Below, one piece after another: positions 8,005 through 8,777 of a DNA stretch of 43,703 nucleotides. The position numbers and the translations under genes are program-made. The notes under the pieces are model-generated. The model did not search any database, was not told the DNA's origin, and saw only the letters and a program-made list of their open reading frames with translations. This DNA is from Candidatus Avispirillum sp. GTDB taxonomy: Bacteria; Bacillota; Clostridia; Oscillospirales; CAG-272. The DNA is taken from assembly GCA_045638055.1 (NCBI GenBank), contig JAZUAR010000017.1, positions 1 to 43,703 of the forward strand, read 5' to 3'. The number at the start of each line of letters is the position of its first letter. Within the stretch, counting starts at the first letter, position 1.

Positions 8005-8007
8005 AAC

Positions 8008-8040
8008 AAAAAGGCTTGACCATACGGTCAAGCCTTTTTA
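8008..8040 (+). terminator. Intrinsic terminator of the lipoprotein gene (copy 1 of a duplicated 35-mer)
   Basis: aaaaaggcttgacc-atac-ggtcaagccttttt. The 35-nt string at 8006-8040 is identical to 8605-8639. Confidence 0.8.
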
Positions 8041-8041
8041 G

Positions 8042-8212
8042 CTTAGTGATGTACTCGCTACGCTCGCGTGATGTTATGCTATGCATAGTGATGTTGCTAC
8101 TTCGTAGCAGTGATGTGATGTTTGCCACACTATGCCGCAAGGCATAACATCACTGTCCGAAGGACTGCATCACGCCTAGCGGCACATCACTTGCCCGCAA
8201 GGGCAAACATCG
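8042..8212. repeat. Inverted array of GTGATG-tagged mini-hairpin units
   Basis: GTGATG at 8046, 8068, 8088, 8110 and 8115, each followed by a short palindrome (for example tgctac-ttc-gtagca). A central tatgcc-gcaa-ggcata hairpin follows. Then the complementary CATCAC at 8148, 8168 and 8185 and CATCG at 8208, each preceded by a hairpin (gtcc-gaa-ggac, ttgccc-gcaa-gggcaa). Unit spacing is 17-23 nt. Confidence 0.75.
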
Positions 8213-8215
8213 TTG

Positions 8216-8242
8216 AAAAAAGCACCCCAAAGGGTGCTTTTT
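8216..8242. terminator. Bidirectional terminator (serves the minus-strand small ORF)
   Basis: aaaaaagcaccc-caaa-gggtgcttttt, with A/T runs on both sides. Confidence 0.75.
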
Positions 8243-8281
8243 ATTTCAGTCATATTTGCAGGGGCGGATATCATCCTCCCG

Positions 8282-8521
8282 TTAATCTGCACTAGACTCT
8301 ATCTCCATATAATATCCGTTATCTTTAATTATGGGAACATCCCCGCAAACGGAAATTGCTTTATCCAGATCAAAGAAAATCTCTTTATCAATCATATCTT
8401 TGTCAAAGCCCTGAGCATGAAATCCGCATTTATCGGCATTAGGATAGAACGTATTCCTTTTTACCGTACCCTCCAACAGCACGTCCTCGTCCAGATACCA
8501 CGCAATTTTTCTGTCTTTCAT
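8282..8521 (-). CDS. Small hypothetical protein (79 aa)
   Basis: ATG at 8521 is preceded by GGGAGG-tacgat. It has its own promoter and terminator. MKDRKIAWYLDEDVLLEGTVKRNTFYPNADKCGFHAQGFDKDMIDKE... has no recognisable family. Confidence 0.6.
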   Translation of the reverse strand: MKDRKIAWYLDEDVLLEGTVKRNTFYPNADKCGFHAQGFDKDMIDKEIFFDLDKAISVCGDVPIIKDNGYYMEIESSAD

Positions 8522-8549
8522 ATCGTACCTCCCAAATTGCTTTTCTATT

Positions 8550-8578
8550 ATTGTACCACAAAATAAAAACGTCTGCAA
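8550..8578 (-). promoter_or_regulatory. Promoter of the small ORF
   Basis: The minus strand reads TTGCAG-17 nt-TACAAT with TGg immediately upstream of the -10 (extended -10). Confidence 0.5.
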
Positions 8579-8606
8579 CCGCGCTTCACTGACAAAATAT
8601 AATGAC

Positions 8607-8639
8607 AAAAAGGCTTGACCATACGGTCAAGCCTTTTTA
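8607..8639. terminator. Terminator hairpin (copy 2 of the duplicated 35-mer), probably terminating hemW read-through
   Basis: Identical aaaaaggcttgacc-atac-ggtcaagccttttt. T-runs are present on both strands. Confidence 0.7.
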
Positions 8640-8647
8640 TTTGTTTT

Positions 8648-8777
8648 TAGTGATGAGTCAGCTTCGCTGACGTGATGATACCCTTCGGGTAACGATGATT
8701 TCCCTTCGGGAAAGTGATGATATGATTGCCTTTTGCAATCATAACTGTTTTAAAACCTGACGCGTGAGGTTTTAAAA
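8648..8777. repeat. Direct array of GTGATGA-tagged hairpin units, plus an 11-bp-stem hairpin overlapping the hemW stop
   Basis: GTGATGA 8650 + gtcagc-ttc-gctgac. GTGATGA 8672 + taccc-ttcg-gggta. aCGATGA 8692 + tttccc-ttcg-gggaaa. GTGATGA 8714 + tatgattgc-ctttt-gcaatcata. Then ttttaaaacct-gacgcgtg-aggttttaaaa (8748-8777). Confidence 0.75.

What the first reader, a model, noticed from the sequence alone, without database searches (positions are those of the whole stretch)
8006..8777. Arrays of variable mini-hairpins, each tagged by a conserved GTGATG(A) word (REP/BIME-like or ornate RNA)
Array 1 (8042-8212) has five GTGATG words, each followed by a short palindrome, then a central GNRA-looped hairpin. 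The mirror image follows: hairpin plus CATCAC three times, then CATCG. Array 2 (8648-8743) has four direct GTGATGA/aCGATGA-plus-hairpin units. Another unit follows ribF (40790-40822). The hairpin sequences all differ, but their stems are maintained. On the + strand the loops are often UUCG or GCAA stable tetraloops (accc-ttcg-gggt, tccc-ttcg-ggga, gccc-gcaa-gggc, tgcc-gcaa-ggca). In array 1 the GTGATG and CATCAC words could also pair long-range, giving a rod of stacked four-way junctions. A conserved head word plus a palindrome, arranged in alternating orientation, is the logic of REP/BIME elements. In REPs, however, the palindrome itself is conserved, and here it is not. I know of no described element with this layout.
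Basis: seen in the sequence. Interest (0 to 1): 0.7.

Follow-up and report, generated by a model that had tools for sequence, protein, structure and literature searches.

The report
Gut-1-type hairpin-array repeat, GUGAUG variant
The arrays are real, but they are a variant of an already catalogued orphan element of gut Clostridia and their phages (the Gut-1 motif, Rfam RF01706), and its function is still unknown.

Summary
Eleven of the window's 34 GTGATG words lie in two intergenic gaps. Each word heads a short, perfectly Watson-Crick hairpin.

The layout has been described before. It is that of the Gut-1 RNA motif (Rfam RF01706, Weinberg 2010). The Rfam model hits 8142-8215(-) at 41.2 bits (E about 1e-6), which is below the family threshold of 50.

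"Array 1" is really two arrays that face each other, 8046-8125(+) and 8131-8212(-). Terminator-like hairpins flank them. The Gut-1 seed sequences have the same mirror layout, and so do nine loci that I recovered from viral contigs and that pass the threshold. In those loci the partner arm scores 38-48 bits, the same range as here.

The novelty is the linker word, GUGAUG(U/A) instead of GUGAAAU or GUGAUAU. I found this variant in only two places: this Candidatus Avispirillum species and one distant Clostridia MAG.

Elsewhere the element occurs in many copies. It overlaps a phage stop codon and sits in every intergenic gap of a phage head operon. Here, array 1 is missing from a near-identical strain.

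The stems have no G-U pairs. The loops are C-GNA-G on one strand.

My best reading is a REPIN/MITE-like dispersed inverted-repeat element that acts through folded single strands. Function is unproven.

The parts
8006..8040 (.). T1, copy 1. A 14-bp hairpin flanked by an A-tract and a T-tract. It looks like a bidirectional intrinsic terminator and ends the 230-aa gene (7312-8004).
   Evidence: Terminator scan, both strands. It is a 35-nt perfect direct repeat of 8605-8639 (D2).
8046..8125 (+). Array A1(+). Words GTGATG at 8046, 8068, 8088, 8110 and 8115. Hairpins at 8075-8087 and 8095-8109. The first spacer, 8052-8067, is a decayed hairpin.
   Evidence: R1 hit at 8068-8093, 34.5 bits. A weak Rfam Gut-1 hit covers 8020-8099(+) at 17.2 bits.
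8131..8212 (-). Array A1(-), read on the minus strand. CGATG (8212-8208) is followed by hairpin 8206-8191. GTGATG follows at 8190, 8173 and 8153 (5' coordinates on the minus strand), with hairpins 8183-8174, 8165-8155 and 8146-8131.
   Evidence: Rfam Gut-1 hit at 8142-8215(-), 41.2 bits, E 1.7e-6. R1 hits at 39 and 35.9 bits.
8117..8126 (.). Left arm (GATGTTTGCC) of a perfect 10-nt inverted repeat with 8202-8211. The pair brackets A1(-). It offers an alternative closing helix that competes with hairpin 1.
   Evidence: I16. The same feature appears in Gut-1 seed sequences (GAAAUAAAUCCC...GGGAUUUAUUUC).
8216..8243 (.). T2, a terminator-like hairpin (aaaaaagcacccc aaa gggtgcttttt). It ends the small ORF. 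It is followed on the minus strand by CAACGATGT.
   Evidence: (I13). The junction matches the Gut-1 consensus UUUUUU-CAACGAAAU.
8282..8521 (-). 79-aa small ORF with its own extended -10 promoter. It is not part of the element. It lies inside the 599-bp segment that strain L120 lacks.
8605..8639 (.). T1, copy 2. Identical to 8006-8040.
8650..8743 (+). Array A2(+). Words GTGATGA at 8650, 8672 and 8714, and CGATGA at 8693. Hairpins at 8657-8671, 8679-8691, 8699-8713 and 8721-8743.
   Evidence: R1 at 35.6 and 32.4 bits. Rfam Gut-1 at 19.7 bits. L120 conserves it, with changes only in or next to hairpin loops.
8747..8778 (.). A 16+16-nt palindrome (gttttaaaacc...ggttttaaaac). It closes A2 and sits just after the hemW-like gene's stop codon (8772-8774).
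   Evidence: (I5).
40790..40822 (+). Possible solitary unit: GTGATGA plus an 11-bp hairpin downstream of ribF. Low confidence.
   Evidence: The R1 model does not detect it.

Best explanation
**What it is.** The two gaps hold three copies of a Gut-1-type hairpin-array arm. Each arm has about four tandem units of roughly 21 nt. A unit is a 6-7-nt linker, GUGAUG(U/A), followed by a short hairpin. The hairpins are fully Watson-Crick, closed by C-G, and mostly carry a triloop.

Two arms that point at each other, A1(+) and A1(-), make one inverted-repeat module between two bidirectional terminator-like hairpins. A2 is a lone arm.

This is a linker-word variant of the Gut-1 family (RF01706). I read that family as a dispersed, probably mobile or gene-converted, REPIN/MITE-like intergenic repeat of gut Clostridia and their phages. 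I do not read it as a locus-specific regulator.

**What is shown.**
- the anatomy
- a significant but sub-threshold match to the Gut-1 model
- the same convergent-pair layout in members that pass the threshold
- many near-identical copies at unrelated loci in other genomes
- presence or absence of one array between near-identical strains
- a patchy distribution across species

**What is inferred.** The element works through folded single strands. The hairpins are the selected feature. The linker word, which differs between lineages, is the recognition or cleavage site of a cognate factor that has not been identified. This is by analogy with the REP 5'-GTAG head and its RAYT transposase.

The stems have no wobble pairs, and one strand carries C-GNA-G / C-GNNA-G loops. 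Both points favour single-stranded DNA. They also fit selection that is blind to strand.

Any benefit to the host would be secondary. Examples are reinforcing termination, or blocking exonucleases when the array is transcribed.

**How sure.** About 0.85 that this is a Gut-1-family variant. About 0.5 that the family is a dispersed REPIN/MITE-like element. About 0.3 that it is recognised as single-stranded DNA by a cognate protein.
For: **Identity**
- The Rfam model hits the window at 41.2 bits, E 1.7e-6, and L155 at 39 bits.
- In nine loci with Gut-1 hits of at least 50 bits, the mirror-image partner arm scores 38-48 bits.
- All 7 pairs I examined are convergent.
- The junction after the terminator, 'UUUUUUCAACGA', is shared with the Gut-1 consensus.

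**Dispersed repeat**
- In the Gut-1 seed, the same terminator plus array follows two different tRNA genes. A 240-nt module is repeated in tandem four times.
- L697 carries two copies 4 kb apart with almost identical hairpins. L522 carries paralogous copies at 74-76% identity with long identical runs.
- L522 is a phage head module with arrays in every intergenic gap. The portal gene's stop codon lies inside the first word.

**Turnover**
- L120 (HemW 99% identical) has A2 but lacks A1 and the small ORF. The difference is a 599-bp segment bounded by a 35-nt perfect repeat.
- Relatives at 91% and 86% HemW identity have no array at this position.
- Only 2 of 87 related loci carry GATG-type units.

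**Single-strand or DNA-level signal**
- 115 of 115 stem pairs are Watson-Crick, with no G-U pairs and 20 of 20 C-G closures.
- A wider set gives 283 Watson-Crick, 6 GT and 4 AC pairs, with no asymmetry between strands.
- On the strand opposite the word, the loops are GAA x10, GCA, GCAA and GTAA. This is the consensus of exceptionally stable DNA mini-hairpins (PMC3201870, PMC13037366).
- Spacing of 17-24 nt rules out strict helical phasing on duplex DNA.
- The position relative to transcription units varies: after terminators, before a terminator (L022), over a stop codon, and directly upstream of start codons.
Against: - No mobilising enzyme has been identified. The window holds no transposase or RAYT. 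A RAYT-like ORF turns up only in loci that have no arrays.
- I could not define target-site duplications or element ends.
- In the one genome fragment available here, the arrays sit at a single locus. A high copy number in this genome is therefore unproven.
- A1(+) and A2 share only about 60-70% of their first unit, so this genome shows no recent copy-and-paste event.
- Weinberg et al. rated Gut-1 as 'certainly RNA' on the basis of covariation.
- The word's final U can wobble-pair with the next word's G. That favours RNA read in the word orientation.
- In phage L522 the arrays are certainly transcribed.
Confidence: 0.5

Rival explanations
1. It is a structured RNA that acts as RNA. One form is a stand-alone small RNA, or a protein sponge that displays GUGAUG linkers between hairpins. 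The other form is a 3'/5'-UTR module whose hairpins block 3'-5' exonucleases and RNase J, and so set the stability of the neighbouring cistrons.
For: - Weinberg 2010 classes Gut-1 as an sRNA with strong covariation.
- The Rfam covariance model matches on each arm's own strand.
- In phages L522 and L022 the arrays lie inside transcribed operons. They follow stop codons and precede ribosome-binding sites, which is where stabiliser hairpins would help.
- The regions fold far better than shuffles, z = -10 and -7.
Against: - In the window, in L155 and in most Gut-1 seeds, the arrays lie downstream of strong bidirectional terminators. Little transcription should reach them there.
- The promoter-like matches are no more numerous than in shuffles, 2 against 1.8.
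- About 115-280 covarying stem pairs contain essentially no G-U pairs. That is unusual for an RNA under structural selection.
- The loops are UNC triloops in the word orientation, not UNCG or GNRA.
- The orientation relative to host transcripts is not constant.
Confidence: 0.25
2. The arrays are single-stranded-DNA initiation signals. These would be arrays of C-GNA-G mini-hairpins recognised by a primase or by a hairpin-promoter RNA polymerase, as at the phage G4 origin, at RSF1010 ssiA, or at phage N4 early promoters.
For: - The loop and closing-pair repertoire matches those signals. CCGAAGG, the ssiA mini-hairpin, occurs at 8157-8163 and in A2 (PMC13037366).
- The element is present in phage genomes.
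Against: - The chromosomal copies sit between ordinary genes, with no replicon or transfer context.
- Nothing in the window encodes such a polymerase or primase.
- Both orientations occur side by side.
Confidence: 0.07
3. The arrays are protein-binding sites on duplex DNA, with the word as the site and the spacers as filler. Iterons, centromere repeats, terminase small-subunit sites and gyrase sites are examples of this kind.
For: - The period of about 21 bp is close to two helical turns.
- The L022 array lies just upstream of a terminase small-subunit (terS)-like gene.
- The location between convergent genes recalls gyrase binding to BIME-2 (my own knowledge).
Against: - Spacing varies from 17 to 24 nt, so the helical phase drifts.
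- The spacers are always perfect palindromes, which duplex binding would not require.
- The word differs between lineages.
Confidence: 0.04
4. The arrays are a chance product. They would be stacked back-up terminators, or slippage debris, with the word arising by accident.
For: - The arrays sit next to real terminators.
- Units do duplicate locally. L155 repeats a two-unit block.
Against: - The word is significantly enriched.
- The array hairpins have no T-tracts.
- The same architecture, and the same junction after the terminator, recur in unrelated genomes, in phages and in a curated Rfam family.
- The complementarity between units far exceeds shuffles.
Confidence: 0.02

Closest known systems
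Gut-1 RNA motif (Rfam RF01706; Weinberg et al. 2010, Genome Biol 11:R31)
   Same: - Tandem short hairpins of variable sequence, each preceded by a conserved A/U-rich linker that starts with GUGA.
- C-UYC-G and UUGC loops.
- A terminator hairpin just upstream, joined by UUUUUU-CAAC-GA.
- A mirror-image partner array, and an alternative closing helix around an arm.
- A habitat in gut Clostridia.
- A significant covariance-model match: 41.2 bits here, against 38-48 bits for partner arms in accepted loci.
   Different: - The linker is GUGAUG(U/A), not GUGAAAU or GUGAUAU.
- All three arms score below the gathering threshold of 50 bits.
- I found this variant only in Candidatus Avispirillum sp. and in one Eubacteriales MAG.
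REP/BIME elements and REPIN doublets with their RAYT transposases
   Same: - An extragenic position at gene 3' ends, often between convergent genes.
- A short conserved head next to a palindrome.
- Inverted doublets that can fold into one long hairpin.
- Families that differ between lineages.
- Dispersed copies in other genomes.
   Different: - The hairpins are 11-23 nt, not about 35 nt.
- Each arm has several hairpins, and they differ from one another.
- No RAYT has been found.
- Copy number in this genome is unknown, and low in the sequence sampled.
DNA mini-hairpins d(GCGNAGC) and d(GCGNNAGC), as in the G4 origin, RSF1010 ssiA and N4 virion RNA polymerase promoters
   Same: On the strand opposite the word, the hairpins are C-GAA-G, C-GCA-G, C-GCAA-G and C-GTAA-G. 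Every one has a C:G closing pair (PMC3201870, PMC13037366).
   Different: Those signals are single hairpins in replication or early-transcription regions. Here there are arrays of 3-6 hairpins with a conserved linker, in ordinary intergenic gaps.
Type III toxin-antitoxin RNA arrays (ToxI and similar)
   Same: Tandem short RNA-like repeats next to a terminator. The canonical Gut-1 linker contains AAAU, which is the ToxN cleavage motif (my own knowledge).
   Different: The antitoxin repeats are 34-36 nt, nearly identical to each other, and precede a toxin gene. Here only the linker is conserved, the units are about 21 nt, and no toxin-like gene is adjacent.

Membership tests
Gut-1 RNA motif (RF01706) | Covariance-model score at or above the curated gathering threshold (50 bits) | tested here: not met
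   Scores are 41.2 bits for 8142-8215(-), 19.7 for 8648-8728(+) and 17.2 for 8020-8099(+). The best hit is still significant, at E 1.7e-6 in a 901-nt search. It falls in the 38-48-bit range of partner arms in accepted Gut-1 loci.
Gut-1 RNA motif (RF01706) | Three or more tandem hairpins of variable sequence, supported by covariation and separated by a conserved linker | tested here: met
   (98.3% paired against 45.7% in shuffles).
Gut-1 RNA motif (RF01706) | Linker consensus RUGAAAU or GUGAUAU | tested here: not met
   The linkers here are GTGATGT, GTGATGA, CGATGT and CGATGA. Only GUGA and the final U/A are shared.
Gut-1 RNA motif (RF01706) | Flanking layout seen in the seed alignment: a terminator hairpin just 5', then a mirror-image partner array | tested here: met
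   Window: T1, A1(+), A1(-), T2. Seeds and accepted loci show the same layout.
REP/BIME/REPIN | One conserved imperfect palindrome of about 35 nt, shared by all copies in a genome | tested here: not met
   The hairpins in the window all differ and are 11-23 nt long.
REP/BIME/REPIN | Inverted doublets in extragenic regions at gene 3' ends | tested here: met
   A1(+) and A1(-) lie between convergent genes. The long-range fold is -72 to -75 kcal/mol.
REP/BIME/REPIN | Tens to hundreds of copies per genome | not testable with these tools
   Only this 43.7-kb contig of the genome could be read, and it has three arms at one locus.
REP/BIME/REPIN | A cognate RAYT (Y1 HUH transposase) in the genome | not testable with these tools
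   None in the window. A RAYT-like ORF occurs only in L203-205, which have no arrays.
Intrinsic terminators (stacked) | A G+C-rich hairpin followed directly by a U-tract | tested here: not met
   T1 passes the terminator scan. T2 shows a hairpin plus T-run by eye but was not listed by the scan. The array hairpins are followed by the linker word, not by T-runs.
Iteron, centromere or terminase-site arrays on duplex DNA | A whole repeat unit conserved, at constant helical phasing | tested here: not met
   Only 6-7 nt of each unit of about 21 nt are conserved. Spacing is 17-24 nt.

The most novel reading that the evidence does not exclude
Gut-1-type modules are the non-autonomous partner of an enzyme of gut Clostridia and their phages that has not been identified and that recognises single-stranded DNA mini-hairpins (C-GNA-G). 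The lineage-specific linker word (GUGAAAU, GUGAUAU, GUGAUG[U/A]) would be its recognition or cleavage site. This would be a second REP/RAYT-like system, with a multi-hairpin array architecture. It would explain an orphan motif that has had no assigned function since 2010.
Probability: 0.2. Interest if true: 0.75.

Novelty: new variant of a known kind. Interest (0 to 1): 0.42.

Why it matters
Gut-1 has had no assigned function since 2010. At that time it was known only from human-gut metagenome reads.

This case adds several things:
- It places a linker-word variant in named Oscillospiraceae genomes.
- It shows that the unit of the family is a convergent pair of arrays next to terminator hairpins.
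- It shows that the family lives in phage structural operons as well as in chromosomes.
- It shows that an array can be present or absent between near-identical strains.
- It brings out two features that argue for a DNA-level or selfish-element reading over the catalogued 'sRNA' label. The stems have no wobble pairs, and one strand carries C-GNA-G loops.

That turns a vague orphan motif into hypotheses that can be tested: strand, single-stranded DNA against RNA, and a cognate protein. In practice, the arrays are also variable markers between strains. They could confuse searches for CRISPR arrays, terminators or small RNAs.

Tried and rejected
**Searches that led nowhere**
  - GTGATG x3 in viral contigs returned coding or simple tandem repeats. 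A later generic scan found one real array among those loci, the ATGATATG array in L022.
  - ATGATATG x3 in viral contigs returned that same phage lineage again and otherwise only simple or coding repeats.
  - GTGATG x3 with unequal gaps in metagenomes returned no true array.
- Exact-sequence look-ups of three window proteins found nothing.
- Homologues of the 230-aa protein include no near-identical strain.
- blastn of the array against the plasmid and phage collections gave no match.
- Homologues of the small ORF lie next to spoVAC in relatives, and none has arrays. The ORF is therefore not tied to the element.

**Ideas I rejected**
- *Box C/D or K-turn.* GUGAUGA equals the C box, but there is no partner CUGA strand.
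- *Type III antitoxin array.* The unit size, the variable units and the missing toxin gene all argue against it.
- *Promoter inside T1 or at the centre.* Promoter-like matches are no more frequent than in shuffles.
- *DnaA boxes, CRP/Rex half-sites, uptake sequences or Chi.* The words do not match, or they are not enriched outside the arrays.
- *T1 as part of a mobile module in this genome.* The same hairpin also occurs in L202-205 and in one phage family, with no arrays nearby.
- *RAYT association.* A tblastn search with the only RAYT-like ORF I found hits no locus that bears an array.

**A test that gave no answer**
G-U against A-C asymmetry, used to pick the functional strand, came out at 6 against 4 in 293 pairs. 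Several of those came from false positives.
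Full report
**1. What is in the sequence**

The region lies between three genes. On the + strand, a pflB-pflA operon is followed by two genes of unknown function (301 and 230 aa). 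On the - strand there are a 79-aa small ORF and a HemN/HemW-like radical-SAM gene.

GTGATG occurs 34 times in the window, against 20.6 +/- 4.5 in shuffles. Eleven of these copies lie at 8046-8190 and 8650-8719.

On the + strand the order of features is:
- T1 (8006-8040), a bidirectional terminator-like hairpin
- four or five GTGATG words with hairpins (8046-8125)
- the mirror image: hairpin-CATCAC three times, then CATCG (8131-8212)
- T2 (8216-8243), a second terminator-like hairpin
- the small ORF on the minus strand
- an exact 35-nt copy of T1 (8605-8639)
- four GTGATGA/CGATGA-hairpin units (8650-8743)
- a 32-nt palindrome that overlaps the stop codon of the hemW-like gene

Read on its own strand, every arm is 'word then hairpin'. 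'Array 1' is therefore two arms that point at each other.

**2. The hairpins**

I curated 20 units from the window and from L155.
- All 115 stem pairs are Watson-Crick. None is G-U.
- All 20 hairpins are closed by C-G.
- In the word orientation the loops are TTC x10, TGC, TTGC, TTAC and a few others.

The outer four pairs of 15 aligned units are 98.3% paired, against 45.7% in shuffles. Thirty cells change on both sides.

**3. It is a described layout**

A permissive Rfam scan matches the Gut-1 RNA motif (RF01706):
- 8142-8215(-) at 41.2 bits, E 1.7e-6, against a gathering score of 50
- 8648-8728(+) at 19.7 bits
- 8020-8099(+) at 17.2 bits

The Gut-1 consensus is CAaUGAAAU-hairpin-GUGAAAU-hairpin-GUGAAAU-hairpin. 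The published seed alignment carries flanking sequence (Weinberg et al. 2010, PMC2864571, supplementary file 95). It shows a gene or tRNA end, then a terminator, then 'UUUUUUCAACGAAAU', then the array, and then the mirror-image AUUUCAC or AUAUCAC array. In one contig a 240-nt module is repeated in tandem four times.

The window's minus-strand arm begins 'ttttttCAACGATGT', which is the same junction.

The only paper in the searched library that mentions Gut-1 is the 2010 description. It gives no function.

**4. Independent examples**

- L155 is a Eubacteriales MAG whose HemW is 50% identical to the window's. It has the GTGATG version in the same layout: gene, terminator, four units; then six units on the other strand, hairpin, gene. 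Its Gut-1 score is 39 bits.
- Scans of viral contigs for three GTGAAAT or three GTGATAT words, filtered for hairpins, recovered twelve loci.
- I ran Rfam on nine of them. All nine have a Gut-1 hit of at least 50 bits, and their partner arms score 38-48 bits, like the window.
- All seven pairs I looked at are convergent.

**5. The element is dispersed and indifferent to context**

- L522 is a phage head module: portal, scaffold, capsid and connector. Arrays fill every intergenic gap. The portal stop codon lies inside the first word. Paralogous copies share 74-76% identity, with long identical stretches.
- L697 has two copies 4 kb apart with almost the same hairpins.
- In L540-type contigs one arm ends about 25 nt before a start codon.
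- In phage L022 a related six-unit array (word ATGATATG, no Rfam match) lies between a stop codon and a terminator.

The hairpins therefore differ within an arm, but they are conserved between copies of a module.

**6. Turnover at this locus**

The organism is Candidatus Avispirillum sp., in the Oscillospiraceae.
- L120 (HemW 99% identical) keeps A2, with changes only in or next to hairpin loops. It lacks A1 and the small ORF. The window has 599 extra bases, bounded by the 35-nt T1 repeat.
- Relatives at 91% and 86% HemW identity have a plain terminator and different neighbouring genes at this position.
- A covariance model of one unit finds nothing else in the window. In 1.29 Mb from 87 related loci it finds only L120 and L155.
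- The window holds no transposase or RAYT.

**7. Which molecule and which strand?**

*For RNA.* Weinberg rated the motif as RNA. The model matches on each arm's own strand. A U-G pair is possible between a word's last U and the next word's first G. The phage arrays are transcribed.

*Against RNA, or for DNA.*
- About 115-280 covarying pairs contain essentially no wobble pairs, and there is no asymmetry between GT and AC.
- On the strand opposite the word, the loops are GAA, GCA, GCAA and GTAA, each with a C:G closing pair. This is the consensus of exceptionally stable DNA mini-hairpins (PMC3201870, PMC13037366). On the word strand the loops are UNC, which is not a known stable class.
- Most chromosomal copies lie beyond efficient bidirectional terminators.
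- Orientation relative to host transcripts is not fixed.
- The variable spacing of 17-24 nt argues against phased binding to duplex DNA.
- A strand that spans both arms prefers a long rod (-72 to -75 kcal/mol) to local hairpins (-45 to -49). REPIN doublets behave the same way.

**8. Verdict**

The finding is a real linker-word variant (GUGAUG[U/A]) of the known Gut-1 family, at a score below the family threshold.

The family behaves like a dispersed inverted-repeat element of the REPIN/MITE type in gut Clostridia and their phages. The recognition factor, the mode of spread, and any benefit to the host are inferred, not shown.

The main rival is a function as structured RNA, either a UTR stabiliser or a small RNA. 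The decisive tests are a whole-genome census, strand-specific transcript mapping, and a search for a co-occurring protein.

Noticed in passing
window 8041-8639, compared with L120 9240-9440: There is a 599-bp presence/absence difference between near-identical strains. The window carries A1, T2, the small ORF, its promoter and a second T1, all bounded by a 35-nt perfect direct repeat. L120 goes straight from a degenerate T1 (two stem mismatches) to A2.
   Followed up: partly
window 40828-40870; L522 1815-1858 and 2010-2045: Downstream of the ribF unit, and just upstream of a D-Ala-D-Ala carboxypeptidase gene, there is a tandem heptad repeat: TATTCAT or TATTCAC, five to six times. Very similar heptads (TATTCAC, TATTATC) flank Gut-1 arrays in phage contig L522. 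This may be a second repeat type that travels with these modules.
   Followed up: no
window 8282-8521 (-): The 79-aa ORF belongs to a small conserved family with no Pfam match. In relatives (L201, L202) it sits directly downstream of spoVAC/spoVAEB. Here it lies about 6 kb from the spoVAC-spoVAD genes (621-2285) and has its own extended -10 promoter.
   Followed up: partly
window 8006-8040 and 8605-8639; L202 10430; L203-205 7572; L327-L347: The T1 stem, AAGGCTTGACC...GGTCAAGCCTT, recurs in other species near small-ORF or spoVA genes. It also recurs at one conserved site in a phage family represented by 21 viral contigs. No arrays are nearby in any of these.
   Followed up: partly
window 3274-3354 (+): A ZMP/ZTP (pfl-motif) riboswitch scores 61 bits, directly upstream of the pyruvate formate-lyase gene. 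L120 conserves it.
   Followed up: no
L522 1630-1665, 1785-1815, 1880-1910: The centres of the phage's intergenic gaps hold other nested repeats. They include GTAG-headed palindromes (tGTAGGGGCG...CGCCCCTACggg) that look like classical REP heads. A RAYT-like HUH ORF (157 aa) occurs in L203-205, which is a different organism.
   Followed up: no
L155 6775-6935: Between the two arms of the L155 module lie two tandem copies, about 63 nt each, of another hairpin-rich unit (ggctccgagttcggctctgccgaactcg...gcgaaatgatg). A module centre can therefore carry cargo.
   Followed up: no
window 11638-36283 (-): A long minus-strand cluster encodes a 2133-aa protein with an Ig-like domain, a Ser/Thr kinase, a PP2C phosphatase, an FHA protein, TPR/WG-repeat proteins, prepilin peptidases and Tad-type pilus genes (TadZ-like, T2SSE, T2SSF, DUF5702).
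   Followed up: no
window 7312-8004 (+): The Cys-rich C-terminal half of the 230-aa protein is a widespread uncharacterised domain. It has 221 homologues at E <= 1e-20, most of them matching only that half.
   Followed up: no
window 40747-40759: A mini-hairpin, gcacg-ttc-cgtgc, sits right after the ribF stop codon. It has the same C-UUC-G type of loop as the array hairpins but no word.
   Followed up: no
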